Of a DNA stretch of 64,000 nt, positions 37,867-52,575 are shown piece by piece. Within the stretch, counting starts at the first letter, position 1. Every line of letters starts with the position of its first letter. Where the stretch lies: the sequence record NZ_CP120537.1. One strand, given 5' to 3'. A program made the position numbers and the translations under genes. Source of the DNA: a plasmid. Below the pieces are notes generated by a model that was not told the origin of the DNA, searched no databases, and saw only the letters and a program-made list of their open reading frames with translations.

Positions 37867-38817
37867 GTGCGGAGAGACATGTCTAATGGGATCTCAATTC
37901 CTGCAATCCCTTGTTCCGTCGGTAAAATTCATCGGCATTATGCGCCAAAATTTTTAGGGCAATTACCGAAATTAGTGCCTGTGCGTCGCTTTGCAGCCGC
38001 ATTAAAGCGTCACGATTGGAACCGCAACCCCCATATTTACCAACTGCGATATAGCCGAAAGCAGCGGATATCGGTGCGTTCAGAGCGTCGAGAAACCTTT
38101 GATGCATTAGCGATGGCCATGATCGCCTATGCGGATTACAACCCTGAAAGTGATGCGTTGTTCGAAGTAATGTGCTCCGTGGAGAAGTTGGCGGAGTTAT
38201 GTGGACAGCTGTATCGCTATGACAGTGGTCGTAAAAGTTACGACCCGATACTGCATGCCTTGCGCGACTGGGAACAAGCCAACCTGATTGTCATTGACCG
38301 CGATTTTGATGTCGAGGCGAAGCAATACAAAGCGATGCGTATTTGGATACGCCCTGAATTTTTCCATGGACTCGGATTTTCCGCATTAGAGCTGCGGGAA
38401 GTGGTCGCCAGCTTTAGCCGTTGGATGGAAAAAAAGGGATTAAAAGAGAGCTACCAAAAACGCTACGCCCAACATGTCTTGCGACTTGCGCGTGCGAATG
38501 TGGCGTCACTGGACACTAAGCACAAACTTCGCAACCTGCTCAACAAGCTCAAAACCCTTGTGGTTGGGAAAGATGAAGCCCTGAAACAAGAGAAAAAACA
38601 TTTAGCCAAAGCGCTGAAGGAAAAGAAAGCCTTAGCCCAAAGTACGCGTGCGCCTGAAAGTCAAGAGCATGCCGCCTGGCGTCGCTTTGAAGCCTGGAAG
38701 GTGACGCAGCCTATTGCGGCCGTCATGGCCTTTGAGCGGAAAATGAAAGCCTTGTATCCGAGTGTTCAAGGGCAGGCCATTTACCTGCATTATCTGGAAC
38801 ACCTACCCGACGCCTAA
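37867..38817 (+). CDS. repA: RepA1 IncFII-type replication initiator
   Basis: Collinear similarity to R100 RepA1: the Arg-rich segment, ALAMAMIAYADYNPESD versus AIDALLQGLCFHYDPLAN, and the Lys-rich C-terminal part. GTG start (alternative ATG at 37879). Confidence 0.65.
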   Translation: MRRDMSNGISIPAIPCSVGKIHRHYAPKFLGQLPKLVPVRRFAAALKRHDWNRNPHIYQLRYSRKQRISVRSERRETFDALAMAMIAYADYNPESDALFEVMCSVEKLAELCGQLYRYDSGRKSYDPILHALRDWEQANLIVIDRDFDVEAKQYKAMRIWIRPEFFHGLGFSALELREVVASFSRWMEKKGLKESYQKRYAQHVLRLARANVASLDTKHKLRNLLNKLKTLVVGKDEALKQEKKHLAKALKEKKALAQSTRAPESQEHAAWRRFEAWKVTQPIAAVMAFERKMKALYPSVQGQAIYLHYLEHLPDA

Positions 38818-39523
38818 TTCCCCCCCCCTAAATTTACCGCCTTGACTGGCGGTGGTTTCGTTCGCCCCAAATCTGGATAGCCTGTTTTTTGAACAGGAAA
38901 TTCGTTGTTCTAATCTCTCCATTCATCTCAACGATGACACCTCGACTATTTTCGTTGGATATTTACCCCATTAACTTCGAATGGGTTTATTCTCTGCAAT
39001 TAACTTCGAATCAGTTTGGGGTTTTAAAGTTAAATTCGTTTTTAGGTTCTGAACTAAACGTCCTTTTTAATAAAAGGAGTTGCGGCTCTGCTTTTTCAAG
39101 CCGCACACTCTAAAGAGATAAACCCAATAAAGCCTTCGCTTACAAGCCATAAATGGCTGTCGCTCAGATTACGGTGTCAATATCGTGCCATTGCCCCCGT
39201 AAAGCTGGCCTTTGGCCACCTTAACGCGCAGCTACAGCCGTTCATCGAGGCTACGCCTCTTGCCCGTCTCACTGCGTTTTTCAAAGGGTCAAATACGCAA
39301 AATGACGGTGTTAGTTTCAATCGGCTCAACCAGGACAGGGGGTAGATTGGGGGATTAAACAGCACGTAACCGCTCACGCGGGTCTCGACGGCCCTAACCA
39401 CTATTCGTTCTTTGTGACTATTTCTGCCGTCTACAGCCCTACGGGCGGGTGATTTCGGTTAAATTTCATGATAATCTGCGATTAATGCATTGATGATAAA
39501 CACGATTTTGGTGTGAGGTTGGA
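38818..39523. promoter_or_regulatory. candidate replication origin region downstream of repA
   Basis: Poly-C tract, AT-rich stretch, no credible ORF. Same position as oriR in IncFII replicons. Confidence 0.3.
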
Positions 39524-40087
39524 ATGGAACGCAAAACACTGACGTTAAAACGTCCGGCGATAGAAAAAGACTCGGAAAGTACTGAACCGGTTATTCAACG
39601 TCGCCGTAAACAGGTGGTGGTTAACACACAGCGTAAACCCCATAAACCCGCCAAAACAGCGCCAACTCAATCGACTAAAAAAGTAACCCCTGCGAAAAAA
39701 CAGAAAGCGGTTGTCATCCCGTTAGAAAAGAAAGTCATTCCTCCAACGCCACCAAAACAACATCTGCCGTTAGAGGAGGCGATTGCCAATATTTCAGCCT
39801 ATTGGCCACAACTCTTTCCCGATGGACAACTTCGACCCATGGCAGTGGGGACACGAGAGGCCTTATTTGCGGACAAAAAAGTCCGTGAACTGCCTATTTC
39901 ATATAAAAAATTGAAACGCAGCCTGGCGGCCATTAGTCACAGTGTCAAATACCGCACGACGATTATGCCTGGTGCAGTACGTTATGATAAAGACGGCCAA
40001 CCTAACGGGGCTGTCACGGAATCGGATGTGGCCGATACGTTAAAACGCATACAAAGACTCGCTAAACAACAATCACGACACACATGA
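39524..40087 (+). CDS. finO: FinO RNA chaperone (fertility inhibition)
   Basis: KTLTLKRP, YWPQLFPDGQLRPMAVGTREAL, ISYKKLKRSLAAISHSVKY and AVRYDKDG parallel F FinO. Confidence 0.8.
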   Translation: MERKTLTLKRPAIEKDSESTEPVIQRRRKQVVVNTQRKPHKPAKTAPTQSTKKVTPAKKQKAVVIPLEKKVIPPTPPKQHLPLEEAIANISAYWPQLFPDGQLRPMAVGTREALFADKKVRELPISYKKLKRSLAAISHSVKYRTTIMPGAVRYDKDGQPNGAVTESDVADTLKRIQRLAKQQSRHT

Positions 40088-40704
40088 CAAAAGTAATAAA
40101 TCCCCCGATTTCTGTTGAAGAAAAAAATCATTGGTTAGGTAAATTAGCCTTTTCCGCTTTAGTCGCGCTCAAGCTGGCGCAGTGGGATGGAAAAGCTGCC
40201 CGAAACGCCCAGTCCGAAAATCTTTTTCTGCTTCGCTGGCTACAAACGGCCCTGAAACAAAAACGGTTTCATCGTTGTGTCGTTCATGATTTTGAATGGC
40301 TCATTCACCTTGGCCAACAATGGCTAATGACCTCAAAATTAAAATCACGGTTAGAATATCTGTGGCGTTCGTGTTGTTGTGATATTACCAGGCAAAGTGA
40401 TTTGTTTCGTTTAACCTACGCGACCGAGCTGCTTAAAGATTTGGGCTGGGACAGTGTGGTACTCAGTGAAGACCGCTGGCAAAAACTGATTGCGAAAAAG
40501 CCGATAGTCACTGCAATTCCCACCTTCTATGTTACTGCCTCTGCTTTAACCACTGGATTCAGTGATGAAGGAAAACAGATAGACTCGGTGGCGTTTTGGG
40601 TGCTGGGTGATAAAAAACAATTTAGCGAAGTCTTCAAACAACACCATCTTTGCGGTCAGTTCGATGAAAATTTGCCACACTATACGTTGTTGTTCTTACT
40701 GTAG
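40084..40704 (+). CDS. hypothetical backbone protein (its 5' and 3' segments recur as fragments near 46.9 kb and 45.1 kb)
   Basis: 206-aa ORF overlapping the finO stop. Confidence 0.4.
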   Translation: MTKVINPPISVEEKNHWLGKLAFSALVALKLAQWDGKAARNAQSENLFLLRWLQTALKQKRFHRCVVHDFEWLIHLGQQWLMTSKLKSRLEYLWRSCCCDITRQSDLFRLTYATELLKDLGWDSVVLSEDRWQKLIAKKPIVTAIPTFYVTASALTTGFSDEGKQIDSVAFWVLGDKKQFSEVFKQHHLCGQFDENLPHYTLLFLL

Positions 40705-40823
40705 GGTATGGATTTGCAGAGTTTTTCTCAAAAATACACTTAACGCACAGTTTGTGTATAGTTAGGCTTTAGTCCCTATGAGACTCAGTTGTTCGAAATT
40801 TAAGCTAAAAAAGGATATACTCC

Positions 40824-41390
40824 ATGAGAAAAATCAACATAAGCTTAAACGACTGTTTTGGTGAAAAAATCAAAATGATTAGAGAGCGAGAAAAAAATTT
40901 TTCTCCAGATATTAATTGGTTTTCTAAAATGGATATTGAACGTTTAGATACATATATGACAAAATTTCAATTCAATTCATTTGAAGAAATTCCTCAAGAT
41001 ATGTCTAATTTTTCATACCCACCTTTTGAGGAAATTAATTTCGAATTACCATCGCTACTCAAGCCTGAACATATAGCTAAACTTCCTCTTCAACATCAGA
41101 AAAAACCAATAATAATAGAAGTAGACGGGCTTCTTTTTTTAAAAAACCTTGGGAAAGGTGCTTTTTGTATAGACCCTCGCCGTTGGCACAGAATTAAAAC
41201 TTACATAGCCCAAGGGAATGTAACTTATCCTGAAGGGTTAAATGATGAGTTTGGTGTTTTTGATGGCCGTCACAGAACTCTTCTATTGATGCAATTATAT
41301 AAGCGCAGATTTGTGCCTGTTGTCGTAGATGAAAAACAGTCTAAAGAATTTATAGCGGCTGCAAAACGATTGAAAGCGCTAAAATTCTAA
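40824..41390 (+). CDS. stand-alone ParB/Srx-like nuclease-domain protein
   Basis: C-terminal IIIEVDG...FDGRHRTLLLMQL...VPVVV matches the ParBc core (DGxHR). Confidence 0.5.
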   Translation: MRKINISLNDCFGEKIKMIREREKNFSPDINWFSKMDIERLDTYMTKFQFNSFEEIPQDMSNFSYPPFEEINFELPSLLKPEHIAKLPLQHQKKPIIIEVDGLLFLKNLGKGAFCIDPRRWHRIKTYIAQGNVTYPEGLNDEFGVFDGRHRTLLLMQLYKRRFVPVVVDEKQSKEFIAAAKRLKALKF

Positions 41391-41440
41391 ATTTTGATAG
41401 ATATGATGTTAGGATTTCCGAGTTTTTAGTTCCACTAATT

Positions 41441-41478
41441 GGGGCCCGCTTGGAAAACAGAAAATATCCTACGTTAAG
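41441..41478 (+). repeat. 38-bp Tn3-family terminal inverted repeat (Tn1721-like), outer end facing left
   Basis: GGGGCCCGCTTGGAAAACAGAAAATATCCTACGTTAAG; a near-identical copy lies at 47409-47446. Confidence 0.5.
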
Positions 41479-41576
41479 GTTATGTTATATACAAATTGAT
41501 ATCAACTCTAGTTCCAACAAGTTTAAAAACTACAGTGGTAAAGAAAAATGCGTTCCCATTTTTAAGAGGCTAAAAG

Positions 41577-43307
41577 ATGTCAGTAATAAGAGCAATAACA
41601 ATACAGAATTTTAGAAGCATAAAAGAGTTTAAGTGGCATCCAAAACCTGGGCTTAACTGTATAATTGGCCCAGGTGACACGGGAAAATCCACAATTCTAG
41701 ATGCTATAGACTTAGCGCTCGGAGCGAGACGAAGTTATAATTTTACTGATGCTGATTTTCATGGTCTAAATACTCAAGAGCCTATCGTGATAACAGTCAC
41801 TATCGGTTGCCTAGATGGTGAGCTCATGAATATTGATAAATACGGCTTTTTTCTTCGTGGTTTTAACCACACATCACTTGAAATACACGATGAACCACAA
41901 CCGGGTGATGAAACAGTTCTTACCATTAAACTAATAGTTGATCAGGATTTATACCCAGACTGGCGCTTGTACTCAGAAAGAGCAGAAAGTGAAGGTTTAG
42001 AGAAGCGTCTGCAATGGAAGCATAAAGAGTTACTAAGCCCAGCTAGACTTGGAACTACTACATATCAACACCTCGCTTGGGGTAACAGCTCTATCCTCAA
42101 TAAACTCTCAGAAGATACCCTCGATGTTTCAGCAACACTTGCAGAATTAGGAAGACAAACTAGACAACACTTCGCAGATCAGCAAGTTGATGGTGTTAAT
42201 GATGTTCTATTAAAAGTACAAAAAATCGCAAATGGATTGGGAGTACCAGTCGGTAAACTTAAAGCGCTATTAGATGTCAATGGAGTATCCCTTTCAAACG
42301 GCGCTATAAGCCTTCACAATGATGACAATACCCCTTTACGTCAACTAGGCACTGGCTCATCTAGATTGCTTATTAGTGGGTTACAAAAGGCTGCAAGCAA
42401 ATCAAACATTATTTTAGTTGATGAAGCAGAATATGGGCTAGAACCATATAGAATAACTCGTTTGCTAAATGAGTTAGGTTCCAAAGATACACAGCCAACT
42501 CAGCAGGTGTTCATTACTACACATTCACCATATGTTCTCCGAGAGCTACAGGCTCAACAATTAAATGTATTAAGAAAAGTATCTTTAGCTACTCAAGTTT
42601 TTGGTAATACCCAAGAATCTCATAAACTTCATAGCCTTGAAGGAAACGATGAGCAACAATCGACTTTGCGTGCTTGCGCTGAATCATTCTTCAGTAAAGC
42701 TGTAATCGTTTGTGAAGGTAAAACAGAAATTGGATATGTTCGAGGAATTGATCTTCACAATCAAAGCACGAATTACCGTAGTATTAACGCATGTGGTGTC
42801 CATTGTGCCGATGGCGGTGGAGATAGCATGTTCGTAAGAGCGGAAATTTTTGCTCAATTAGGTTATCCCACCGCCATATTTAAAGACTCAGACAAAGCTC
42901 AGGAACATGTAGGACCTTCTCAACTGGCTGCGAGTAAAGGCATCGCTATCTATGAGTGGGGTAATAATTCTGCAACTGAAGATGTGCTTTTTATGGCTTG
43001 TCCGGCTCAGGTGATTCCTCAATTACTGGCTATTGCAATTCAGCGAAAAGGCCAAGCAGCAATCGAAGACCATATTATTGCTCACTCACAAAACCAAATA
43101 ACGCTTGATGTTTGTCTAAATCACTTTCAAGAGAGTTATCGAGCGATTTTAGCCAAAGCTGCAAAAAAAAAGTCATGGTTCAAAGATATCGAACCAGCAG
43201 AAACGTTTGCACGGAATGTGATTGCTCCCAATTATGCTCAATTTTCAGAAGCTCTCACAACTACGACTAACCAACTGTTTCGATGGGCTCTAGAGCAAGG
43301 TGATTGA
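41577..43307 (+). CDS. gajA: GajA-like OLD-family ATPase plus TOPRIM nuclease (Gabija component A)
   Basis: 576 aa. N-terminal AAA/ABC ATPase (GPGDTGKST Walker A). C-terminal TOPRIM-like acidic motifs (VCEGKTE; FKDSDKAQE). Confidence 0.7.
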   Translation: MSVIRAITIQNFRSIKEFKWHPKPGLNCIIGPGDTGKSTILDAIDLALGARRSYNFTDADFHGLNTQEPIVITVTIGCLDGELMNIDKYGFFLRGFNHTSLEIHDEPQPGDETVLTIKLIVDQDLYPDWRLYSERAESEGLEKRLQWKHKELLSPARLGTTTYQHLAWGNSSILNKLSEDTLDVSATLAELGRQTRQHFADQQVDGVNDVLLKVQKIANGLGVPVGKLKALLDVNGVSLSNGAISLHNDDNTPLRQLGTGSSRLLISGLQKAASKSNIILVDEAEYGLEPYRITRLLNELGSKDTQPTQQVFITTHSPYVLRELQAQQLNVLRKVSLATQVFGNTQESHKLHSLEGNDEQQSTLRACAESFFSKAVIVCEGKTEIGYVRGIDLHNQSTNYRSINACGVHCADGGGDSMFVRAEIFAQLGYPTAIFKDSDKAQEHVGPSQLAASKGIAIYEWGNNSATEDVLFMACPAQVIPQLLAIAIQRKGQAAIEDHIIAHSQNQITLDVCLNHFQESYRAILAKAAKKKSWFKDIEPAETFARNVIAPNYAQFSEALTTTTNQLFRWALEQGD

Positions 43308-44725
43308 TAATGAGCATAGAAGCAATTTTCGATAATGATGTTGGCTCTATAGTGGCTCCGGCAGGGTGCGGTAAAACCCAGTTGATCACTGATACTCTGG
43401 TGATAAAACCAAACAAGCCATATCTTGTCTTAACTCATACGACGGCAGGTGTAGCCGCTCTAAAACTAAGGTTGAAAAAATTATCTGTCCCAACAAAGAA
43501 CTTCTTTGTTACAACAATAGATGGTTGGGCTTTGAAATTAGCAAAAAACTTTCCTGTTTCATGTCCTATACAAACCTCTCCTGAAAATCCAAAGGCATTC
43601 TATCCAGAGTTAAGAAGAAGTGTTCTTGCGTTACTCCAAAATGGGAACGTAAACGACATTCTAAGAGCATCATATTCACGACTACTTGTTGATGAGTACC
43701 AAGACTGTAACTTGGTGCAACATCAGGTAGTAACAGAGCTATCGTCATTAATTCCGACGACAGTTTTCGGCGATCCGATGCAGTGTATATTTAACTTCGC
43801 AGGAAGGATGCCTGACTGGAACACAGAGGTTCAAGCAAGGTTTCCTCAAATACATGAATTAACAGTACCATGGAGGTGGAATAATGCTGGTTCCCATGGT
43901 CTTGGACAGTGGGTACTCGATTGCCGAAATATATTGATCCAAGGTAATAAAATAGATCTTTCGACATGCCCTGGTTATGTTCACCACAAGCCATTGTCCG
44001 GTGTTGCAAGCACTGACTTACAAGCTCAACAAGCTGCTCAATATGATATTTTTAATAGAGCTCAAAATGAATCTTTGCTCGTAATCGGTGATTCAATAAA
44101 TGCAAGATCTAGGCATAAATATGCTCAAAGTAGTAGGAATATTGATGTCGTTGAGCCAGTGCAACTCGACGATGTAGCTAATGCTGCTCGCTCTTTTGAT
44201 AGTGCGCAAGGCATAGATTTGGTTGATGCCATTCTTACCTACTCGGGTGAGATGATGACCAATGTGCAAAGGCCACAGACCCTACAAAGATTACGCACTA
44301 TTCAAGCAGGGAGAAGTCGAATACCTATCACTTCACTGGAGACTGCTCTCCTCAATGTTCTCCAGAATAGCTCTCGCAATAATATTCTGACGGCTTTGCT
44401 GCAATTAGAGTCTAAACAAGGAGCTAAAGTTTATCGCAAGGCTGCATTTTCAGCGCTGAAAGACACTATTTCACTTTCAAGCTCTATGCCTGACCAGACC
44501 ATATTGGACGCCGCTTCATCAATTCGTGAGCAACTCAGGCTACATGGCGATCGACGAATATCTCGCCGCGCAATTGGATCGACACTGCTACTGAAAGGGC
44601 TAGAGTGTGATCATTCACTAATTCTTAACGCTGATAACATGAATGCACAACATCTATACGTTGCTTTATCAAGAGGGGCAAAATCAACAACTGTTTTTTC
44701 TCAAAGCAACCTGATTGGCCCATAA
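43304..44725 (+). CDS. gajB: GajB-like UvrD/PcrA-type helicase (Gabija component B)
   Basis: 473 aa. APAGCGKTQ Walker A and LLVDEYQD (DEAD-like motif II). ATGA overlap with the upstream gene. Confidence 0.7.
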   Translation: MIMSIEAIFDNDVGSIVAPAGCGKTQLITDTLVIKPNKPYLVLTHTTAGVAALKLRLKKLSVPTKNFFVTTIDGWALKLAKNFPVSCPIQTSPENPKAFYPELRRSVLALLQNGNVNDILRASYSRLLVDEYQDCNLVQHQVVTELSSLIPTTVFGDPMQCIFNFAGRMPDWNTEVQARFPQIHELTVPWRWNNAGSHGLGQWVLDCRNILIQGNKIDLSTCPGYVHHKPLSGVASTDLQAQQAAQYDIFNRAQNESLLVIGDSINARSRHKYAQSSRNIDVVEPVQLDDVANAARSFDSAQGIDLVDAILTYSGEMMTNVQRPQTLQRLRTIQAGRSRIPITSLETALLNVLQNSSRNNILTALLQLESKQGAKVYRKAAFSALKDTISLSSSMPDQTILDAASSIREQLRLHGDRRISRRAIGSTLLLKGLECDHSLILNADNMNAQHLYVALSRGAKSTTVFSQSNLIGP

Positions 44726-45074
44726 CCATTTAATGGGGTGTTTTGACTTAAAGAACGGTTTGTCTGATTGATTCTTAAAACGCTTTTAAAAACATAGCGT
44801 TATAATGGTTTGTTAAAATTAAAAACTTAATATTCAACATACTAATCAACTGAATATTAAGCTTATTTTTAATTTCTTTATTTCATAAATTCAATGCTAT
44901 TAATTTCATCCTCTGTTAAAGGTAGAAATTCTTCCATGCTGTCGGCTACACTGTGTGCATAAGCACTAATATCCTCTTCATCGACTTCACCTAAGCTATT
45001 CCTCATGCTCTCTGCAAACTCTTCGATATTATTGATAATATTAGCATGCAAGCTCGGATCTGCTTTAATAGCGG

Positions 45075-45223
45075 GGTTCAGTGATGAGGGGAAACAGGTT
45101 AACTCAGTAGAGTTTTGGGTGCTTGGGGAGAGAAAACAATTTAGTGAAGTAATCAAACAGCACCATCTTTGTGGTCAGTTCGATGAAAATTTGCCACACT
45201 ATACGTTGTTGCTATCACGTTAG
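45075..45223 (+). pseudogene. 3' fragment of a paralogue of the 40084-40704 gene
   Basis: About 85% nucleotide identity to 40556-40704, including the stop. Confidence 0.5.
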
Positions 45224-45391
45224 GATGTATCATATCTACAGCGTCATACACTTTAGGTAATAAACGCTCACGTTTGCGATTGGCTAAAAAATCGTAATAG
45301 CGGATCATCTTAAAATGCCGTGGTGGGTATAGAATGGGATTCCTGCGTAGAACCCATTCTGATTTATTTATAGCATAGAATAATGTAGAAT

Positions 45392-45907
45392 TTATTGTGT
45401 TGTATTCGAAGGTTTTTTACATCCTAGTTCTATAAGTGCATCAGTAATAAATGGAAATGCTGGTTGTTGCCATGGATTAATATAATTTGGTTTTAGGCTT
45501 GTTACTTCAAATTTTGTTTTATTTTTATTGTCATAAACCCATCTCTTTGTCGTATTTATTTCTTCATACTTATCAATCTGATATTTGATGTTATCAAGAA
45601 TATCTTTTAATGAGATGGATGGACAGTTCCCTGTTCCTTTTGTTACGTACTGCTGCGCCGCTTCCAAAAATCCCAAACAGTGAGAGTATTCGTTGCTTGA
45701 ACCTTTTTGGGCTCCATTATTACAAATTTTGACCAAATCTTGAATTGATGGTGCTGCATAATAGGTGGCTTTTGGTGTATCTATGTACTTGCTGATGTCA
45801 CCGAATAGTTGAGAGTCAATAATTGATGTGTTTTTACTTAATACTATTGAAGGAAAAAAAAACATCGAAAATAAAATATAACTAATTGATATGTTAGGTT
45901 TAAGCAT
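45392..45907 (-). CDS. secreted hypothetical protein
   Basis: Signal peptide, AT-rich, 171 aa, several Cys. Confidence 0.4.
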   Translation of the reverse strand: MLKPNISISYILFSMFFFPSIVLSKNTSIIDSQLFGDISKYIDTPKATYYAAPSIQDLVKICNNGAQKGSSNEYSHCLGFLEAAQQYVTKGTGNCPSISLKDILDNIKYQIDKYEEINTTKRWVYDNKNKTKFEVTSLKPNYINPWQQPAFPFITDALIELGCKKPSNTTQ

Positions 45908-46507
45908 AATTTTATTTATCCCAATAAGTGAGATGGTGTTAGAAAAACTCTTTCTTAACTGAAGGTATACAATGTTAATCTAAAAATGCACAGTATAACA
46001 TGGAGTTGGATTTTTACCGTACATGGCTAGGAATCTATGGTCACTCCTTTTTTGCAACACAGATTTTGAAGATATTGTTGGCTTGCATGAATCTATACGG
46101 CGTCTGAATCCGCACCTAATGAACCTTGTAAAATTGAGCTGCATTGGCTCCTGAGGGCCAATGGAACGAAAACGTACGCTAATTAGTGTACGTTTTCCGA
46201 ATGGTTGGCAGTTATCGCAGCTACCCTGTCACTGCCCCCTGAATTGTTTGTCACTTAGACATTAATGAGTGTCAATTTTGTTTAATCCCATGCCCGTTTG
46301 GTGAATAGGGTTAACATTTTTCGTGATTTGACTGACATGATGACCTGGACGAAAAGGAATGTGATTTTTTATTTATAGTCAATGTGTCCACTAATTCATT
46401 GAAATCGTGCGATTAAATACATCTAGATAGAGTGTGAAAATGCAAATTAGACTTCACTCGAACATTGAGAGTCGAAAAACGGACAGAAAATCGATTCTGC
46501 GTTATGA

Positions 46508-46757
46508 GGGGTTTGAAGCCTAACCGTACGAGATCGTACGCTAAGTTTATTTTTTTAGCGGGTTTGGCGAGTAAAGAAAACGAGGGTTTTGTTTACTCTT
46601 TTCATTGATGGCAGTATCCATCAGTTTCAGACACTTCCGACGTTAATAAACTCGGTAATCAAAGTAAATCTATTCGACAACATAACGGCTTTATAGACTT
46701 AAAATCATATAGTTACTTCCTTAACGTACGTTTCCGCACGGTTAGGCTTCAAACCCC
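46508..46757. mobile_element. Tn3-derived inverted-repeat miniature element (about 250 bp)
   Basis: 38-bp GGGGTTTGAAGCCTAACCGT...TAAG-type inverted repeats at 46508-46545 and 46720-46757, no ORF inside. A degenerate abutting IR pair lies at 46160-46205. Confidence 0.45.
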
Positions 46758-46807
46758 GATTAAGGTCCCATCAATGAGAAATATGCATAAAAAAAACATC
46801 AAATTAA

Positions 46808-46845
46808 TGGTGTCGGATTTTTCGGCGGTTCCGGCGTGGAACCCC
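46808..46845 (-). repeat. Tn3-family-like terminal IR, type B (GGGGTTCCACGCCGGAACC...), outer end facing right
   Basis: Related copies at 47579-47616, 57530-57567 and 59694-59731. Confidence 0.4.
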
Positions 46846-46884
46846 AATCACTAACCGTATGACAAAGACACCCAATCCCTCAAT

Positions 46885-46999
46885 TACCTTTGAAGAAAAA
46901 AATCGTTGGCTGGGTAAATTTACGTTTGCGGCTTTAGTAGCGCTCAAGATGGCGCAATGGGATGGAAAAGCTGCCTGAAACGCCCAGCCTGAAAATCTT
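46885..46999 (+). pseudogene. 5' fragment of a paralogue of the 40084-40704 gene (in-frame stop)
   Basis: Similar to 40105-40220. Lies 40 bp after the type-B IR. Confidence 0.5.
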
Positions 47000-47066
47000 T
47001 TTCTTCTTCCTTAGTTTTGTTATCTTAGCGTATTCTTACCTTACTTAACTTTTTCATGAGGTTTGT

Positions 47067-47375
47067 ATGCGCTATCTTCTAATTTTTCAGATTTATGATC
47101 GTAGTTGTGATATTTACCATGAAGAAATTTTTGAAAGTTTTGAGCCTTTTATGTCATTGCATGTCGGTGATCATGTCAACCCTAATAGCCTTCCCAAATT
47201 AGCTTCATTGGCTGAGACGATTATTCATCCTTTAGGCGGTAAATTTAAGCTCCAAGTTTCTGAGATTGAACATATGTTCCATTCTACTAATGATCTCGAC
47301 AAAGGTGGTTTTGTAGAACATTCTGTTGGAGGGCATACGACTCTAATTACGTTGCAAAAATCGACAGAGGAGTGA
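47067..47375 (+). CDS. hypothetical protein
   Basis: 102-aa ORF. Confidence 0.3.
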   Translation: MRYLLIFQIYDRSCDIYHEEIFESFEPFMSLHVGDHVNPNSLPKLASLAETIIHPLGGKFKLQVSEIEHMFHSTNDLDKGGFVEHSVGGHTTLITLQKSTEE

Positions 47376-47408
47376 AGCACTAAGCAGGGTAAATAAGTAG
47401 GGGTTCGC

Positions 47409-47616
47409 TTGGGAAACGGAAATTATCCTACGTTAAGCTGGTGATGGACAGCACATCAAAGGTACAGATGAACTACTTCTGTCAGCAATATTCAGGATAT
47501 TTTTGGTTTGCGAAATGGATGGAGCGACTGGCTCAGGGGATTGCTGATGGTGTTATCGAGGTTCCGAAAGACCGCTAAAATAGTAGACCGGAAATTCCGG
47601 CGCGGCGTAGAACCCC
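47409..47616. mobile_element. about 208-bp Tn3-derived miniature element (type-A IR at the left, type-B IR at the right)
   Basis: GGGGTTCGCTTGGGAAACGGAAATTATCCTACGTTAAG at 47409-47446 and an inverted GGGGTTCTACGCCGCGCCGGAATTTCC... at 47579-47616. No credible ORF. Confidence 0.4.
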
Positions 47617-47678
47617 ATAACCATAGTCGAACTACAGTAACTTCCTATACACGAGTGCTTCATGCCCCGTTAAGTAGA

Positions 47679-47954
47679 TTAATATTGGCTAAAAATATCT
47701 TGGTGAGAACCCGTTCTCGCTAACTTTAATTCTTGACCAGTAATTTTATAAATTAGTAGCCAATCGCCTTCAATATGAGCATCTCTATATCCTCGCCAAT
47801 TACCTGTTAAAGGGTGGTCTACATAGTCCGCAGGGATCTGTTCTTCCTTTATTAGTAACTCAATTAATACTTTTAGCTTGTTTAAATCCTTCCCTCTTTT
47901 TTTTTGTCGCTTAACATCCGCCTTAAAAGCACTAGAACGAATAGGAGTTAGCAT
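47679..47954 (-). CDS. RelE/YafQ-family toxin
   Basis: 91 aa, with the YafQ-like motif HPLTGNWRGYRDAHIEGDWLLIY. Confidence 0.7.
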   Translation of the reverse strand: MLTPIRSSAFKADVKRQKKRGKDLNKLKVLIELLIKEEQIPADYVDHPLTGNWRGYRDAHIEGDWLLIYKITGQELKLARTGSHQDIFSQY

Positions 47955-48265
47955 CAGATCCCCAAATCATCGAAAAGTGCATTGGTTGAAGAAAATGCTT
48001 TTCCATTCCCTTTTTCTAATTCTTCAATTGCCTCTTTAGTCACAACATTTGGTGTTTTGATATCAAATGGTAGTTTTCCTTCATCGGCAACACGAATCAT
48101 AACCATACGGATAAGATCAGATGTATTTAAGCCCATCTTTGCAAGTGCAGATACAGCTCGTTCTTTGACATCTTGAGAAATTCTAGCTTTAACAGTCGTA
48201 TCAGAAATCATATTATTATCCTCATGTGTTATCACTCTTTTATTGTGTGCCTGATGTGCCCACAA
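47954..48265 (-). CDS. DinJ/RelB-family antitoxin
   Basis: 103 aa, ribbon-helix-helix N-terminus. Upstream of and overlapping the toxin by 1 nt. Confidence 0.7.
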   Translation of the reverse strand: MWAHQAHNKRVITHEDNNMISDTTVKARISQDVKERAVSALAKMGLNTSDLIRMVMIRVADEGKLPFDIKTPNVVTKEAIEELEKGNGKAFSSTNALFDDLGI

Positions 48266-48383
48266 ATCAAGCTTTTTTGAAGTTTATGTTTACTATGGGC
48301 TCTTTTAGGGGGGCTAGCCCACTTCATCGAAAAGCCCAAATTTTGCTCGTAACACATTGATATCATAACTATGGATAAGTCAT

Positions 48384-49028
48384 TTATTTCGCTGCTTTCA
48401 TCGATTTTGATACCTTTGAAATCGTATGTCTTGAACAACCTATCAGGTTTTCTATCTGACTATAGCTTTTCCCTTCCATCAGCAAGCCTTTAATATTTTG
48501 GTGTAATATTTTATTGATCGGGCGACCTTTATATTTTCCTTCTTGTTTGGCTTTTTGCACTCCTTGGGCTTGGCGACGGCGTCTATCCTCATAATCCTTT
48601 CTCGCAATTGCAGCCAGCATGTCTAACATCATACCGTTAAGAGCCGCGAGCATTCGTTCTGTAAACGCATCAGTGCTACTCATAAATTGATAACTGGTTG
48701 GAAGATCTAAAGACACAATCTTTAGCCCTTTATGTCCAATGAGATATTTTAATTTTTCCCAGTCATCCGTATTCAAGCGGCTAATTCTATCCACTTGTTC
48801 AACTAAGATAATATCACCTGCCATGGCCACATTGAGCAAGCGGAAGAGTTCTGGTCGGTGAAGTTGAGCACCCGACTCATTCTCCTCAAACCAGCAGGCA
48901 ATTTGCAGCCCCATTCCTTCCACAAACCTAAGTAGTTCTTTTTTTGCTCTAGACGCATCTTGCTCATGCGTTGATGCGCGAAGATACCCATAAATTCGTG
49001 TATTTGTATTCATTGGTGCACTATACAT
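48384..49028 (-). CDS. tnpR: serine recombinase / resolvase TnpR
   Basis: YLRASTHEQD N-terminal catalytic Ser motif and a C-terminal helix-turn-helix. Divergent from tnpA. Confidence 0.75.
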   Translation of the reverse strand: MYSAPMNTNTRIYGYLRASTHEQDASRAKKELLRFVEGMGLQIACWFEENESGAQLHRPELFRLLNVAMAGDIILVEQVDRISRLNTDDWEKLKYLIGHKGLKIVSLDLPTSYQFMSSTDAFTERMLAALNGMMLDMLAAIARKDYEDRRRRQAQGVQKAKQEGKYKGRPINKILHQNIKGLLMEGKSYSQIENLIGCSRHTISKVSKSMKAAK

Positions 49029-49189
49029 TGGTGTTGTTATGTCAGTGCATTATACATCGGTTTTTCATACTTACTACACTAGAGTTTACTTAGTGAAGTT
49101 AAGGTAGACTTAAATTGCACTTTTATATCGATTACGCGCGCGTCCATTATATGATGTTGTTTATTTTTAGAGGATAGAACATAACCACA
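49029..49189. promoter_or_regulatory. res site / divergent promoter region
   Basis: Repeated subsites tgcactatacattggtg and tgcattatacatcggt between tnpR and tnpA. Confidence 0.4.
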
Positions 49190-52100
49190 ATGAAAGAGAT
49201 TAAATCAGGCCGTATTCAAATTTTGACAGAACAGGAGATTCATGAGCTCTATTCTCGTCCAATATTTAATCAAATTGAGCGTGAAGAATATTTTTCATTA
49301 GATCCGAGTATAAAAAAAATCCTCACTAAAATGGGAAAAATTGAAACGAAAATATATTTAATTCTTCTGATTGGTTATTTTCGCGCGAAGCCTGTTGTCG
49401 CTCAATTTAAACTACGAGAGGTTAAACAAGATGTCGACTATATTTATGCGACACATTTTCCAAATAGAAAGCCGAAATACCCCTTTATTGCTAAAAGTAC
49501 TCGAGCAACATTGATCGCTAAAATGCATGAAATACTGGGTTTTTCGCGGTTATTAAGACAAGATAAACAAGCCTTGATAGAGCGTTTGGGTGATGTCGCA
49601 ACAATCTGTACATACCCCAAATATATTTTTGATGAATGCCTCGCTTTTTTAGGTCAAAACAGAATTGGATTAGTGGGTTATTCCACTTTGCAAAATATGA
49701 TCACCACGGTTTTAGCTAATGAGAGGCATCGTACCGAGTTGATCCTTTCAAATAGCGTGCCACCAATAATACATAAAAAATTAAAGAAGATACTGCATAC
49801 AAAAGGGGTTTTAAATAGTCTATCTGGCCAACAAGGCGCAGCTAAAGATTTTACACCGACAGAGCTCGCAAGTGAAATTGAAACGCATAATGCCATAAAA
49901 AGTGTTTATCCCGACGTAAAACGTCTTGTTGGTGAATTGGGATTATCATTAGGTAATTTAAGCTATTATGCATCGATTATTCAACATCAATCGATTTATA
50001 AAATTCGTCGATTTCCCGAATGGCAAGGCATGTTATATCTGGTTTGTTATCTATTTTTTCGCTACCAAGAAACTAATGATAAATTGGTAACAGCTTTTTT
50101 ATATGTGACGAGAAAGCAAAGGGAAGCTGCGAGTGCTTTAGCTAAGTTACGCATTGCAGAAGAACTGGAAATTATTCGTGAAAAGTTAATGCATGCGGGT
50201 AATATTTTACACCTCTTTGTTGATGAAAACGTCAGTGACAATACGCAATTTGGTGATATTCGCCAAAATGCATTTGCAATGATGTCTAAAGATGAAATTC
50301 AGTTAATAAGTCAACATCTTAATAAGAATAGTTTTGATAAAACCCATTATGAGTGGCTATACATTGATACACAATACAGAAAAATTGCGAATACAATGAG
50401 GTCACTCTTTCTCGCGATTGATATCGAGTGCGAACCAGGATTACAACTACTATCTTCCCAATTATTAACAGCAAAATCAGAACTTCAAAAAGATAAGCAC
50501 ATTTCTACCGTCGATCAGCGGTTACTGTTAAAAAACGATAAACCTTTTATCCTGATAGATGAACAGGTTAATACTCAACGATTTGAATACTATTTATACC
50601 AAAAAGTGGCTCGGATGATTGAGAGTAACAATATTTACATCAATGAAAGCGCCAGCAACAAGCGTTTAGACGATGATCTGATTTCAGCCACCGAGTGGAA
50701 AAAAAGCCATGTCATCATTCAAAAAACAGGATTAACTCGGCTCAATACACCGATACAACAAACGCTTTCGGAATTAACGCAAAAACTGAGAGACCAAATG
50801 GAGCGAATTGGTCGCAATATCCATGATGGAGCCAATGATTTCGTGACACTTCAACCGCGTTCAAATCAGTTAACATGGAAACTGGCGAATAAACGCTGGA
50901 AAGATGACATTGATAATCCCATATATAACCAGCTCCAACATATGGGGATCATTGAAATTATGGACTATGTTCATCAAAAAACGGGTTACTTAGATGCATT
51001 TAAAAATATCGCATCAAAAAAGAAAAACACTAAGGCCAAAGAGGGCGATTTACTCGCTTGCATATTTGGAAATGGCTCAAACTATGGTGTTCATCATATG
51101 TCATCAATATCAGATAGAGCCATCGGTGTGCTTAGAGCCGTCAATGATGGTTATATTAGGCCTGAAACAACGAGTGAAGCTAATGATATGATAGCTGATG
51201 CTTTAGCAAAACTCCCCATTTTCAAATATTATACGATTAACGAAAGTGCCCCATTTGGTAGTATTGATGGCCAAAAACATGGTTGCCGAATCAATACATT
51301 TAAAGCCCGTTTTTCTGCTAAATATTTCCGAAAAGGGAAAGGCGTATCAGCACTCACATTAGTTTCAAATCATGTACCAATAAATACGAAAGTGATTTCA
51401 GCCAATGAATATGAGGCTCACCACGCATTCGATTTACTCTATAATAATACCAGCCATATTCAGCCCAAAACATTAGCAACAGACACGCATGGCGTTAACA
51501 ATGTAAACTTTGCTATCCTTGATCTCTTTGGGTATCAGTTTGCCCCGCGATATGCAAAATTTAAACACGTTTTTAATGAATTGTTTGAGATCGAGTATGA
51601 TGAAATCCTTTCCCTGAAACTTAAAAAATCGCTCAACTTATCACTCATTCAAGAAGAGTGGGAAAATATTCAATGGATAATTTGTTCATTAAGCCGTAAA
51701 ACGACGACACAAAGCACGGTGATTACTAAGCTTTCTAACAGTAAGAAAAACAATCGCACCTTAGCGGCTCTTCGTGAATATGACCGAATAATTAAGTGTT
51801 TATACGTTCTCGATTATGTTGATGACAAAATGCTCAGGCAGTTTGTCCAACAAGCACTTAATCGGGGTGAGGCTTACCATCAATTACGGCGTGCAATTGC
51901 GTCAATTAATGGTAATCAATTCAGAGGTGGCGATGATTACCAGATAGAACAATGGAATGATTGTGCTCGTATCATTGCTAACTGCATTATTTATTATAAT
52001 TCTGCATTATTATCCAGTTTGATTGAAAAATTTGCGCGTGAAAATAATCAAGAAGCGGTGAATATGATAGCTGAGTTATCACCTGTCGCATGGCAGCATA

Positions 52101-52216
52101 TACAGCTGGCCGGTAATTACACCTTTGGCCTTAAAAAAGATAATATTGTACTGGAAAGATTACTGGAGAATTTAGATCCTCTTATTTCAGAAGAGTCGTT
52201 AAGCTTAGCGGCATAG
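49190..52216 (+). CDS. tnpA: Tn3-family transposase TnpA
   Basis: 1008 aa, typical length and architecture (DDE region in the C-terminal third). Confidence 0.85.
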   Translation: MKEIKSGRIQILTEQEIHELYSRPIFNQIEREEYFSLDPSIKKILTKMGKIETKIYLILLIGYFRAKPVVAQFKLREVKQDVDYIYATHFPNRKPKYPFIAKSTRATLIAKMHEILGFSRLLRQDKQALIERLGDVATICTYPKYIFDECLAFLGQNRIGLVGYSTLQNMITTVLANERHRTELILSNSVPPIIHKKLKKILHTKGVLNSLSGQQGAAKDFTPTELASEIETHNAIKSVYPDVKRLVGELGLSLGNLSYYASIIQHQSIYKIRRFPEWQGMLYLVCYLFFRYQETNDKLVTAFLYVTRKQREAASALAKLRIAEELEIIREKLMHAGNILHLFVDENVSDNTQFGDIRQNAFAMMSKDEIQLISQHLNKNSFDKTHYEWLYIDTQYRKIANTMRSLFLAIDIECEPGLQLLSSQLLTAKSELQKDKHISTVDQRLLLKNDKPFILIDEQVNTQRFEYYLYQKVARMIESNNIYINESASNKRLDDDLISATEWKKSHVIIQKTGLTRLNTPIQQTLSELTQKLRDQMERIGRNIHDGANDFVTLQPRSNQLTWKLANKRWKDDIDNPIYNQLQHMGIIEIMDYVHQKTGYLDAFKNIASKKKNTKAKEGDLLACIFGNGSNYGVHHMSSISDRAIGVLRAVNDGYIRPETTSEANDMIADALAKLPIFKYYTINESAPFGSIDGQKHGCRINTFKARFSAKYFRKGKGVSALTLVSNHVPINTKVISANEYEAHHAFDLLYNNTSHIQPKTLATDTHGVNNVNFAILDLFGYQFAPRYAKFKHVFNELFEIEYDEILSLKLKKSLNLSLIQEEWENIQWIICSLSRKTTTQSTVITKLSNSKKNNRTLAALREYDRIIKCLYVLDYVDDKMLRQFVQQALNRGEAYHQLRRAIASINGNQFRGGDDYQIEQWNDCARIIANCIIYYNSALLSSLIEKFARENNQEAVNMIAELSPVAWQHIQLAGNYTFGLKKDNIVLERLLENLDPLISEESLSLAA

Positions 52217-52518
52217 TCTATTAATATTATTAAACTATATATCGGCTGTAGTCCTTGATATCAAAGGGCTACAAGCAAACTTTGGACTTTTCGATGAAAT
52301 GGGCACACAACCCCATATAGGAATTAAACCTGAATATTTGGCTATGTTATACCGAACCACTGGTGATTTAGATGGATTGAAACTCCCAAAAAGAAATCGT
52401 CATGGAAAAGTAAAAATGAGTGAAGTTTTATTGTTTAAAAAGGAGTTTGAAAATAAAAATGAAGGAGGGTAAATCTCTAGTATTGCTTTATTTTAAATTT
52501 TTGGAACGTAAAAAAGTG

Positions 52519-52548
52519 TGGGGTATTTACACGATGTAAATACCCCAT
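52519..52548. terminator. perfect 12-bp hairpin (ggggtatttaca-cga-tgtaaatacccc) followed by a T-rich run
   Basis: Seen directly in the sequence between the Tn3-like IR and the IS. Confidence 0.3.
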
Positions 52549-52575
52549 TTATAACACAGTCATCTCGTAGAATAT

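What the first reader, a model, noticed from the sequence alone, without database searches (positions are those of the whole stretch)
41441..44725. Gabija-like gajA/gajB defence pair directly behind a Tn3-family terminal inverted repeat
The 576-aa protein has an OLD-family layout: an N-terminal ATPase with GPGDTGKST and a C-terminal TOPRIM-like region. It overlaps by ATGA a 473-aa UvrD-like helicase (GCGKTQ, LLVDEYQD). Sizes and order match Gabija. A canonical 38-bp Tn3-family IR (GGGG...ACGTTAAG) lies about 100 bp upstream. The only credible opposite end is a different IR type at 46808-46845, which suggests the defence pair was delivered as cargo of a now-decayed Tn3-family element. A stand-alone ParB-like nuclease gene sits just outside the IR.
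Basis: partly seen in the sequence, partly recalled or inferred. Interest (0 to 1): 0.55.

Follow-up and report, generated by a model that had tools for sequence, protein, structure and literature searches.

The report
Plasmid Gabija pair among transposon debris
This is an intact but ordinary two-gene Gabija anti-phage system on a Providencia plasmid; it sits among leftover Tn3-family transposon ends but was not delivered by the inverted repeat next to it.

Summary
The gene pair is real. gajA is 41577-43307 (576 aa). gajB is 43310-44725 (471 aa), separated from gajA by a 2-bp gap, not an ATGA overlap. PADLOC GajA and GajB models match over their full length (E 7e-221 and 8e-174). The ABC-ATPase motifs, the TOPRIM residues E380/G/D437xD439 and the UvrD Walker A and DEYQD motifs are invariant in 30 homologues each. 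Predicted folds hit class-2 OLD/BcGajA and UvrD/BcGajB at about 14% identity. This is a divergent but already catalogued Gabija clade.

The window is Providencia plasmid pPROV048-1. The 38-bp repeat at 41441-41478 is a genuine Tn21-like Tn3-family end, but a solo one.
- It sits at the same backbone site in related plasmids that lack gajAB.
- Its only partner (47400-47437) is in direct orientation.
- There are no target duplications.
- The 97%-identical gajAB cassette elsewhere (41507-44731) starts 29 bp inside it.

The 46808-46845 repeat is a real end of a different Tn3-family type. A Providencia chromosome carries window 40094-46845 at 100% identity, ending exactly at 46845. So gajAB has travelled beside Tn3-family ends, but not as an IR-bounded unit. 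The 'ParB-like' label for orf188 is unsupported. Interest is low.

The parts
41577..43307 (+). gajA: class-2 OLD-family nuclease (N-terminal ABC-type ATPase, C-terminal TOPRIM), 576 aa
   Evidence: PADLOC GajA PDLC04168, E 7.2e-221, residues 1-571 against model 1-567/570. Pfam AAA_15, AAA_21 and OLD-like_TOPRIM 371-439. Invariant in 30 homologues: Walker A G31/G33/G36/K37/S38; D282/E283; H316; E380; G407/G413; D437/S438/D439. Foldseek hits 6p74 and BcGajA with probability 1.0.
43310..44725 (+). gajB: compact UvrD-like SF1A helicase, 471 aa (an alternative TTG start at 43304 would give 473 aa)
   Evidence: PADLOC GajB PDLC04173, E 7.6e-174, residues 6-471. Pfam UvrD-helicase. Invariant A16-T23 (Walker A) and D128-E-Y-Q-D132. 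AF2 pLDDT 91; Foldseek hits UvrD/Rep/PcrA at E 4e-15 and BcGajB at E 8e-11. Start codon.
41507..44731 (+). gajAB cassette as shared with other genomes: about 70 bp of upstream region, gajA, gajB, and 6 bp
   Evidence: 97% nucleotide identity to chromosomal loci L007-L009 (contigs holding a GajA that sources name as E. coli and Shewanella) over exactly 41507-44731. 89% identity to Morganella L011 over 41509-44709. Flanks are unrelated.
41441..41478 (+). IR-a: solo Tn21-like (MITE/TIME-type) Tn3-family terminal inverted repeat, outer GGGG end on the left
   Evidence: Perfect match to GGGG-N26-ACGNTAAG. 27/38 identical to the Tn21 IR at the end of an annotated Tn3-family transposase element in L004. 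The same IR type bounds 286-bp MITEs in E. coli plasmid L026. A decayed copy sits at the same site in L002/L003.
47400..47437 (+). IR-b: second copy of the same IR type, in direct orientation, fused to the 180-bp right end of a B-type transposon (to 47617)
   Evidence: 33/38 identical to IR-a. 47433-47620 matches the resolvase-proximal end of a Tn3-family transposon present on more than 1000 plasmids.
46808..46845 (-). B-type Tn3-family terminal IR (outer GGGG end at 46845); solo right end
   Evidence: It forms the exact right junction of window 40094-46845 (100% identity) in Providencia chromosome L020. The same IR type flanks a complete tnpA-tnpR transposon in E. coli L026, 3074-7189. Other copies lie at 57529-57566 and 59694-59731. 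Only 11/38 identical to IR-a.
44730..44764 (+). A-type 35-bp repeat abutting the cassette's right border; one arm of a roughly 490-bp MITE that is complete in L005/L006
   Evidence: An inverted copy follows 460 bp downstream of gajB in L005/L006. Another copy lies at 59581-59615.
45059..45226 (+). Fragment of a second DUF2913 gene (C-terminal end)
   Evidence: 84% identical to 40540-40705.
46508..46757 (.). 250-bp TIME/MITE with 38-bp Tn3-type IRs
   Evidence: Inverted repeat I2, 33/38. About 81% identical copies on many E. coli, Shigella and Klebsiella plasmids.
46846..47009 (+). Fragment of a second proQ 3' end plus DUF2913 N-terminus, with an in-frame stop
   Evidence: 81% identical to 40065-40234.
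40824..41390 (+). orf188: plasmid-backbone gene of unknown function just outside IR-a; not part of the defence system
   Evidence: No Pfam, NCBIfam, PADLOC or PDB-sequence hit. 32 homologues with invariant IDPRRWH and DGRHR. Present in gajAB-free plasmids.

Best explanation
The locus is an intact two-gene Gabija-type anti-phage system, a class-2 OLD nuclease (GajA) with a UvrD-like helicase (GajB). It is carried on Providencia plasmid pPROV048-1, of the rep_cluster_1220 family that also contains pPROV114-NR.

Mechanism, inferred from characterised Gabija systems: GajA and GajB assemble into a hetero-oligomer. The GajA TOPRIM site (E380, D437, D439) nicks or cuts invading DNA by two-metal catalysis. 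The nucleotide-bound ABC ATPase domain holds it in check, and GajB's ATPase/helicase motor senses DNA ends and licenses cleavage.

The unit that moves between genomes is a 3.2-kb cassette (41507-44731) with its own 70-bp upstream region. In this plasmid family the cassette lies in a variable region between the backbone genes DUF2913-orf188 and the yafQ-dinJ-resolvase module. That region is littered with solo ends and miniature derivatives of at least four Tn3-family IR types.

The IR next to gajA is pre-existing backbone debris, not the vehicle that delivered the genes. Nevertheless a larger segment (40094-46845) that includes gajAB was later moved into a Providencia chromosome. One junction is the other Tn3-family end (46845) and the other junction is a Tn21-type transposon.
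For: Identity of the pair:
- PADLOC full-length hits and Pfam domains.
- Invariant catalytic residues in 30 homologues each. They correspond to BcGajA E379/G409/D432xD434 and to the GajB Walker A and DEXQD motifs described in PMC10781630.
- Fold hits to TsOLD and BcGajA and to UvrD and BcGajB.
- A profile hit to 8sm3_A GajA at 1.5e-7.
- The exact protein is conserved on many Providencia plasmids.

Cassette borders.

The IR belongs to the backbone:
- Alignment with the gajAB-free plasmids L002/L003.
- A directly oriented second copy.
- The IR type bounds 286-bp MITEs and hits 3001 plasmid records.

Chromosomal translocation ending exactly at 46845. The B-type IR pair around a complete transposon.
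Against: - No experiment exists on this clade. It is only about 14% identical to B. cereus GajA and GajB.
- HMMER finds BcGajA only through the N-terminal 75 residues, and finds no solved GajB at all.
- The GajA model is mediocre (pLDDT 68, global TM about 0.16), so the global architecture and any 4:4 assembly are inferred.
- GajB is structurally closer to UvrD than to BcGajB.
- The order of events (IR first, cassette later) is inferred from comparing present-day plasmids. Loss of gajAB from L002/L003-type plasmids cannot be strictly excluded.
- The left end used in the chromosomal event was not seen.
Confidence: 0.82

Rival explanations
1. One reading: 41441-46845 is a decayed Tn3-family (or TIME-COMP-like) element, with ends IR-a and the 46808-46845 IR, that delivered gajAB to the plasmid as cargo.
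For: - Both ends are genuine Tn3-family-type ends and face each other with gajAB between them.
- 46845 behaves as a real terminus in L020.
- Next door, IR-b is joined to a B-type end in a 218-bp mini-element, 47400-47617.
- TIME-bounded composites are known to move cargo with a transposase supplied in trans (PMC13367494).
Against: - The two ends are of different types (11/38 identical). In an intact transposon, B-type IRs pair with B-type IRs.
- There is no 5-bp direct repeat (TAATT vs AATCA).
- There is no transposase or resolvase between the ends.
- The IR is at the same backbone site in gajAB-free plasmids.
- The cassette elsewhere lacks the IR.
- The interior contains backbone fragments and other MITEs.
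- The only documented translocation crosses IR-a.
- All 23 contigs read that carry this exact GajA keep DUF2913-orf188 upstream.
Confidence: 0.12
2. The pair is a housekeeping or plasmid-maintenance DNA-repair module (a generic class-2 OLD nuclease plus a UvrD-like helicase) rather than an anti-phage system.
For: GajB's fold is closer to UvrD/Rep/PcrA than to BcGajB. The clade itself is untested. Sources name the proteins only 'ATP-dependent nuclease' or 'UvrD-helicase domain-containing protein'.
Against: - Dedicated PADLOC Gabija models match both proteins end to end.
- The cassette moves horizontally at 89-97% identity between genera, into islands with integrases and next to other accessory genes. 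That is the pattern of defence cargo, not of core repair genes.
- Every class-2 OLD/UvrD pair tested so far that I found in the literature acts in defence.
Confidence: 0.05
3. The genes are inactive relics trapped in a recombination-scarred region.
For: The neighbourhood is full of gene fragments and solo IRs. In relatives, gajA is truncated (L006) or separated from its upstream region (L004) by Tn21-type insertions.
Against: In this window both ORFs are full length. All catalytic residues are intact and invariant. The 70-bp upstream region shared with other genomes is present. The exact protein recurs on many plasmids.
Confidence: 0.03

Closest known systems
Bacillus cereus VD045 Gabija (GajA/GajB; PDB 8SM3, 8U7I, 8J4T, 8X5I)
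   Same: Same gene order and near-identical sizes (576/471 aa here vs 578/494 aa). GajA is an ABC ATPase plus a TOPRIM domain with the E / G / DxD site at almost the same residue numbers. GajB is an SF1A helicase with Walker A and DEXQD. Foldseek probability is 1.0 for both.
   Different: Only 13-15% identity. phmmer does not find BcGajA or BcGajB from the single sequences. GajB ranks behind UvrD, Rep and PcrA. DNA motif specificity, nucleotide sensing and the 4:4 assembly are untested here.
Class-2 OLD nucleases (Thermus scotoductus 6P74; Burkholderia pseudomallei 6NK8; Xanthomonas campestris 6NJW/6NJX)
   Same: 6P74 is the best sequence and fold match. The TOPRIM C-terminal region matches with TMt 0.43-0.50. 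The family is defined by pairing with a UvrD/PcrA/Rep-like helicase gene.
   Different: 10-18% identity. Those proteins were studied as nucleases, not in this plasmid context.
Pseudomonas aeruginosa PA14 Gabija (PMC12407980)
   Same: A Gram-negative GajA-GajB pair. It offers the alternative trigger model: DNA ends that RecBCD cannot load on.
   Different: Its sequence relationship to this clade was not measured here.
TIMEs and TIME-COMPs (IS101, IMU, MITESen1, TIME244; PMC4133298, PMC13367494) and Tn21
   Same: IR-a and IR-b are Tn21-subgroup-like 38-bp IRs of the kind that bound 286-bp MITEs on enterobacterial plasmids. 46508-46757 is a 250-bp TIME. Cargo between such ends can be mobilised in trans.
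   Different: Here the ends flanking gajAB are solo, of unlike types or in direct orientation, and lack direct repeats. The published criteria for a transposed TIME-COMP are therefore not met.

Membership tests
Gabija (GajA/GajB) | GajA N-terminal ABC-type ATPase with Walker A, Walker B and H-loop | tested here: met
   Pfam AAA_15, AAA_21, AAA_23 and SMC_N. G31/G33/G36/K37/S38, D282/E283 and H316 are invariant in 30 homologues.
Gabija (GajA/GajB) | GajA C-terminal TOPRIM with invariant Glu, Gly and DxD (BcGajA E379, G409, D432/D434) | tested here: met
   PF20469 OLD-like_TOPRIM, residues 371-439, E 1.3e-7. E380, G407/G413 and D437-S-D439 are invariant. Reference residues come from PMC10781630. 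The correspondence rests on motif order and position, not on a residue-level alignment to BcGajA.
Gabija (GajA/GajB) | GajB UvrD-like SF1A helicase with Walker A and a DEXQD box | tested here: met
   PF00580. AGCGKT at 18-23 and DEYQD at 128-132 are invariant. The model (pLDDT 91) matches UvrD, Rep and PcrA at E about 1e-14 and BcGajB at 8e-11.
Gabija (GajA/GajB) | Adjacent, co-oriented genes in the order gajA then gajB | tested here: met
   gajA stop at 43307 and gajB ATG at 43310. The pairing is conserved in all related loci.
Gabija (GajA/GajB) | Recognition by curated Gabija profile models | tested here: met
   PDLC04168 GajA 7.2e-221 and PDLC04173 GajB 7.6e-174, both near full length. Classic GajA model PDLC00086 scores 1e-31.
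Gabija (GajA/GajB) | Anti-phage activity, GajAB hetero-oligomer, and nucleotide- or DNA-end-gated cleavage | not testable with these tools
   Inferred from BcGabija and PA14 Gabija papers. The Providencia Gabija tested in PMC12935923 belongs to a different GajA clade.
Tn3-family unit transposon carrying gajAB | Terminal 38-bp IR of the GGGG...ACG(Y)TAAG type | tested here: met
   41441-41478 is a perfect pattern match and is 27/38 identical to the Tn21 IR.
Tn3-family unit transposon carrying gajAB | A matching IR in inverted orientation at the other end | tested here: not met
   In the window, the only copy with up to 13 mismatches is direct (47400). 46808-46845 is 11/38 identical.
Tn3-family unit transposon carrying gajAB | 5-bp target-site duplication | tested here: not met
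   The flanks are TAATT (41436-41440) and AATCA (46846-50). No other IR pairing gives a match either (AAGTA, ATAAC).
Tn3-family unit transposon carrying gajAB | Cognate tnpA (and tnpR/res) inside the element | tested here: not met
   No transposase lies between 41441 and 46845. The resident tnpR/tnpA (48384-52216) has its own IRs of roughly 49-57 bp near 48310-48365 and 52256-52314.
Tn3-family unit transposon carrying gajAB | The same IR-cargo unit found in different flanking contexts | tested here: not met
   IR-a is always preceded by DUF2913-orf188. The IR is present without gajAB in L002/L003, and gajAB is present without the IR in L007-L011. In contrast, the 46845 end does occur at a new junction.
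TIME-COMP (cargo between two TIMEs) | Two complete TIME copies bounding the cargo, with flanking 5-6-bp direct repeats | tested here: not met
   Only solo IRs bound the gajAB segment and there are no direct repeats. Criteria are from PMC13367494.
ParB/Srx-like nuclease (orf188) | Match to ParB-type nuclease domain models or structures | tested here: not met
   No Pfam hit at E<=10, no NCBIfam hit, and a 19-sequence profile gives no meaningful PDB hit. Only a DGRHR motif is present.

The most novel reading that the evidence does not exclude
The 6.75-kb segment 40094-46845 (DUF2913'-orf188-IR-a-gajAB-...-B end) together with the abutting Tn21-type/class 1 integron transposon may form a hybrid Tn3-family composite. 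It would transpose using unlike ends (a Tn21-side end plus the B-type end at 46845). That would make it a single mobile unit co-spreading an anti-phage Gabija system and integron-borne antibiotic resistance from plasmids into chromosomes. A second reading, not excluded: this clade (about 14% identical to BcGajAB, with a helicase closer to UvrD) may be triggered differently from B. cereus Gabija.
Probability: 0.25. Interest if true: 0.4.

Novelty: already known. Interest (0 to 1): 0.18.

Why it matters
The finding matters mostly as annotation. RefSeq calls these genes 'ATP-binding protein' and 'UvrD-helicase domain-containing protein', yet they form a complete Gabija system on clinical Providencia plasmids. 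Some relatives of these plasmids carry NDM, PER or integron resistance regions.

The comparison also shows how such defence cassettes behave. The 3.2-kb cassette keeps sharp borders in unrelated vehicles. It sits in a plasmid hot spot filled with Tn3-family miniature elements and solo ends. It has been carried into a chromosome next to a Tn21-type resistance transposon. In other relatives it has been hit by Tn21-type insertions. None of this is conceptually new, because Gabija, TIMEs and defence cargo on mobile elements are all established.

Tried and rejected
- phmmer of GajA and GajB against PDB sequences. It found only class-2 OLD, PtuA and retron ATPases for GajA and nothing for GajB. I therefore relied on a profile search and on fold searches.
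- An exact 36-nt IR-a/cassette junction pattern in genome contigs gave 0 hits. The search for related loci with GajA in genome contigs returned one distant MAG locus that was not useful.
- megablast of the cassette against 5,426 complete E. coli genomes gave no match, so the E. coli copies are rare draft or TPA assemblies.
- orf188 as a ParB-like nuclease: Pfam at E<=10, NCBIfam, PADLOC and a profile against PDB were all negative.
- PADLOC on the small neighbouring ORFs (92, 51, 171 and 102 aa) and on Rpn gave nothing credible.
- An Rfam gathering scan of 38000-53000 gave nothing.
- A promoter/terminator consensus scan of 41300-45300 found fewer sites than the shuffled controls, so it was uninformative.
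- The GC profile shows no compositional break at the cassette.
- I looked for target duplications for every pairing of the left-type and right-type ends and found none.
- I considered that L002/L003 arose from the window arrangement by IR-a x IR-b deletion. I rejected this because they carry about 630 bp after the IR (including a 130-aa ORF) that did not match window 40001-48400.
- I scanned L020 for a left-hand B-type or TTAAT-flanked end within the fetched 17.7 kb and found none.
Full report
WHAT IS THERE. The window is 100% identical to Providencia sp. PROV048 plasmid pPROV048-1 (NZ_CP096361.1, 89 kb, rep_cluster_1220). Around the finding the gene order is traI, repA, proQ/finO-like, DUF2913, orf188, then the two genes of interest. 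After them come several small ORFs, yafQ-dinJ, a serine resolvase and a Tn3-family transposase. The first gene of interest is 41577-43307 (576 aa). The second is annotated from the ATG at 43310 to 44725 (471 aa). gajA ends ...GAT TGA (43305-43307) and two bases later comes ATG. The 'ATGA overlap' is therefore wrong; only an upstream TTG at 43304 would give 473 aa. Homologues are 471-472 aa long.

IDENTITY OF THE PAIR. PADLOC's Gabija models match both proteins essentially end to end. GajA PDLC04168 gives E 7.2e-221 (residues 1-571 against model 1-567/570), and GajB PDLC04173 gives E 7.6e-174. Classic GajA and GajB models also hit, at 1e-31 and 3e-15. Pfam gives AAA_15/AAA_21/SMC_N plus OLD-like_TOPRIM (371-439) for the first protein and UvrD-helicase/AAA_19 for the second.

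In alignments of 30 homologues each (60-91% and 53-92% identical to the query) the expected catalytic residues are invariant.
- In GajA: Walker A G31/G33/G36/K37/S38, Walker B D282/E283, H316, the TOPRIM glutamate E380, glycines G407/G413 and D437-S-D439.
- In GajB: AGCGKT (18-23) and DEYQD (128-132).

These residues correspond in order, and almost in number, to BcGajA E379, G409 and D432/D434 and to the GajB Walker A and DEXQD motifs described in PMC10781630.

The clade is nonetheless distant from the characterised system. phmmer finds class-2 OLD 6P74 but not BcGajA, and finds no solved relative of GajB. A profile of the 30 GajA homologues reaches BcGajA (8SM3_A, 1.5e-7) only through the N-terminal 75 residues.

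The structure predictions fill this gap. The GajA model has pLDDT 68 overall, with the TOPRIM half at 88-95. It hits TsOLD (E 1.9e-8) and six BcGajA entries (about 1e-7, probability 1.0, 13-14% identity), plus the C-terminal regions of Xcc and Bp class-2 OLD (TMt 0.43-0.50). The GajB model (pLDDT 91) hits UvrD, Rep and PcrA (E about 1e-14, TMq 0.55-0.59) ahead of BcGajB (E 8e-11, TMq 0.34-0.38).

The family is large in Gammaproteobacteria, including Vibrio, Shewanella, Aeromonas, Morganella and Yersinia. Conclusion: this is a bona fide class-2 OLD/UvrD pair, that is Gabija as operationally defined. It belongs to a clade that PADLOC already models but for which I found no experiment. The Providencia stuartii Gabija tested in PMC12935923 is a different GajA clade.

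THE INVERTED REPEAT. GGGGCCCGCTTGGAAAACAGAAAATATCCTACGTTAAG lies at 41441-41478, 98 bp before gajA. It is 27/38 identical to the Tn21 IR that terminates an annotated Tn3-family transposase element in the related plasmid L004. It is therefore a genuine Tn21-subgroup-like end with its outer GGGG facing orf188.

Five observations argue against it being the end of the vehicle that brought gajAB.
1. In gajAB-free relatives with the same backbone (pVCSW10.3 = L003 and FDAARGOS_1450 = L002), a decayed copy of the IR sits at the same place after orf188. Backbone homology to the window runs through the IR to 41483-41489 and resumes at 47608, before yafQ.
2. The only other copy of this IR in the window (47400-47437, 33/38) is in direct, not inverted, orientation.
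3. The 97%-identical gajAB in the chromosomal loci L007-L009 (whose GajA sources name as E. coli and Shewanella) shares only 41507-44731 with the window. The 89%-identical copy in Morganella shares 41509-44709. The cassette therefore starts 29 bp inside the IR, about 70 bp upstream of the gajA ATG, and ends 6 bp after gajB.
4. No pairing of left-type and right-type ends gives a 5-bp duplication (flanks TAATT, AAGTA / AATCA, ATAAC).
5. Every contig read that carries this exact GajA keeps DUF2913-orf188 upstream of the IR.

This IR type is very common. It hits 3001 plasmid records. In E. coli plasmid L026 it forms the two ends of 286-bp MITEs. These belong to the TIME class of non-autonomous Tn3 derivatives (PMC4133298, PMC13367494).

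THE 'OPPOSITE END'. 46808-46845 (reverse complement GGGGTTCCACGCCGGAACCGCCGAAAAATCCGACACCA) is only 11/38 identical to IR-a, but it is a real terminus. The same type flanks, as an inverted pair, a complete tnpA-tnpR-orf transposon in E. coli L026 (3074-7189). Its 190-bp terminal segment is on more than 1000 plasmids. Further copies lie at 47580-47617, 57529-57566 and 59694-59731; the last is followed by a small ORF and a resolvase.

Decisively, Providencia chromosome CP042860.1 (L020) contains window 40094-46845 at 100% identity. On its left, a Tn21-type IR abuts position 40094 inside DUF2913. On its right, the copy ends exactly at 46845, where a chromosomal cytochrome-c-peroxidase-like gene begins. 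So gajAB has been moved as a passenger of a segment whose junction is a Tn3-family end. That segment crosses IR-a and includes orf188. I could not reach the left end of the insertion.

THE NEIGHBOURHOOD. The stretch between gajB and yafQ is a mosaic. It contains:
- one arm of a 35-bp-IR MITE (44730-64), complete in L005/L006;
- a DUF2913 C-terminal fragment (45059-45226);
- three small ORFs without matches;
- a back-to-back pair of truncated IRs that, from memory, resemble Tn1000/gamma-delta ends (46152-46210);
- a remnant of the region upstream of an Rpn gene (46238-46507);
- a 250-bp TIME (46508-46757);
- the B end (46808-46845);
- a proQ'/DUF2913 N-terminal fragment (46846-47009);
- orf102;
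- IR-b fused to a B-type right end (47400-47617).

The resident tnpR/tnpA (48384-52216) has its own IRs of roughly 49-57 bp near 48310-48365 and 52256-52314, which are of yet another type. Related plasmids break off from the window at 44769 (L005, L006), 45031 (L021, L024) and 47316 (L004, an IS3 insertion). Tn21-type transposons have inserted 14 bp upstream of gajA (L004, at 41563) and inside gajA (L006, at 42207). The direct IR-a/IR-b pair with backbone-like fragments between them suggests recombination or cointegration between two related plasmids. This is a guess.

MECHANISM.
- Shown: both proteins are intact, with complete active-site motifs.
- Inferred by homology: GajA and GajB form a hetero-oligomer. 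The GajA TOPRIM domain cleaves or nicks phage DNA by two-metal catalysis. Nucleotide binding to the ABC domain restrains it. GajB's motor senses DNA termini and activates cleavage (BcGabija papers).
- Alternatively, the system acts on DNA ends from which RecBCD is excluded (PA14 Gabija).
- Which trigger applies to this clade is unknown.

OTHER CLAIMS. orf188 is a conserved plasmid-backbone gene. It has 32 homologues with invariant IDPRRWH and DGRHR, and no match to any ParB or other family in Pfam, NCBIfam, PADLOC or PDB sequences. 'ParB-like nuclease' is a motif-level guess only. No other defence genes and no Rfam RNAs lie nearby.

VERDICT. This is a correct call of a Gabija system, which existing tools already detect. 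It lies in a region of Tn3-family debris. The specific delivery model (an IR-bounded decayed transposon) is not supported. Novelty: already known. Interest is low.

Noticed in passing
L020 (Providencia chromosome CP042860.1) 6518-13269 = window 40094-46845: A 6,752-bp piece of the plasmid (DUF2913'-orf188-IR-a-gajAB-small ORFs-TIME-B end) sits in a chromosome at 100% identity. A Tn21-type IR with integron/tnpR/tnpA lies on its left. On its right, the exact outer end of the 46808-46845 IR abuts a cytochrome-c-peroxidase-like gene.
   Followed up: partly
L004 7963-8000 (junction at window 41563); L006 about 7965-8002 (junction at window 42207): Two independent Tn21-type (integron- or mer-bearing) transposon insertions: one 14 bp upstream of the gajA ATG, one inside gajA. 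In those plasmids, resistance transposons have separated the defence gene from its upstream region or truncated it.
   Followed up: partly
window 46508-46757: A 250-bp miniature element with 38-bp Tn3-type IRs (33/38). About 81%-identical, unannotated copies occur on many E. coli, Shigella and Klebsiella plasmids.
   Followed up: partly
window 46152-46210: Two truncated IRs lie back to back with nothing between them (…GAGGGCCAATGGAACGAAAACGTACGCTAA / TTAGTGTACGTTTTCCGAATGGTTGGC). From memory they resemble Tn1000/gamma-delta ends.
   Followed up: no
window 44730-44764 and 59581-59615; L005 12028-12522: A 35-bp repeat (GGGGTGTTTTGACTTAAAGAACGGTTTGTC core) forms the inverted ends of a roughly 490-bp MITE right after gajB in pPROV224-1. 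In the window only one arm remains. It is inserted 8 bp further from the gajB stop than in L005.
   Followed up: partly
window 47400-47617; E. coli L026 3074-7189: 47433-47620 is the resolvase-proximal end (small ORF 3' end plus terminal IR) of a Tn3-family transposon found on more than 1000 enterobacterial plasmids. In the window it is fused to IR-b, giving a 218-bp hybrid mini-element. A complete copy of the transposon lies in L026.
   Followed up: partly
window 57529-57566 (-), 59694-59731 (+), about 59778-60746: Further B-type ends. The one at 59694 is followed by a small ORF and a resolvase gene, so it looks like a B-type transposon remnant on the same plasmid.
   Followed up: no
window about 48310-52314; 47961-47988: The resident tnpR-tnpA Tn3-family transposon has IRs of roughly 49-57 bp that begin with GGGG. 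A third, partial copy of that IR lies within the 3' end of dinJ. L003 has the same resolvase without the transposase.
   Followed up: partly
L007-L009 3643-13306; L011: The 97%-identical gajAB cassette lies near the right end of an island shared by the chromosomal loci L007-L009 (GajA named by sources as E. coli and Shewanella). It sits downstream of an integrase (455 aa) and of 579-, 707-, 146- and 86-aa genes without Pfam hits. The island is absent from 5,426 complete E. coli genomes. Morganella has the cassette next to a 1367-aa gene, with another integrase cluster nearby.
   Followed up: partly
window 45059-45226 and 46846-47009: Fragments of a second proQ/DUF2913 module (81-84% identical to the intact copy at 40065-40705). 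They lie in the order C-terminal piece then N-terminal piece, which suggests past recombination between two related plasmids.
   Followed up: partly
window 40824-41390: orf188 belongs to a small plasmid-borne family (32 homologues) with invariant IDPRRWH and DGRHR motifs and no match in any profile library.
   Followed up: partly
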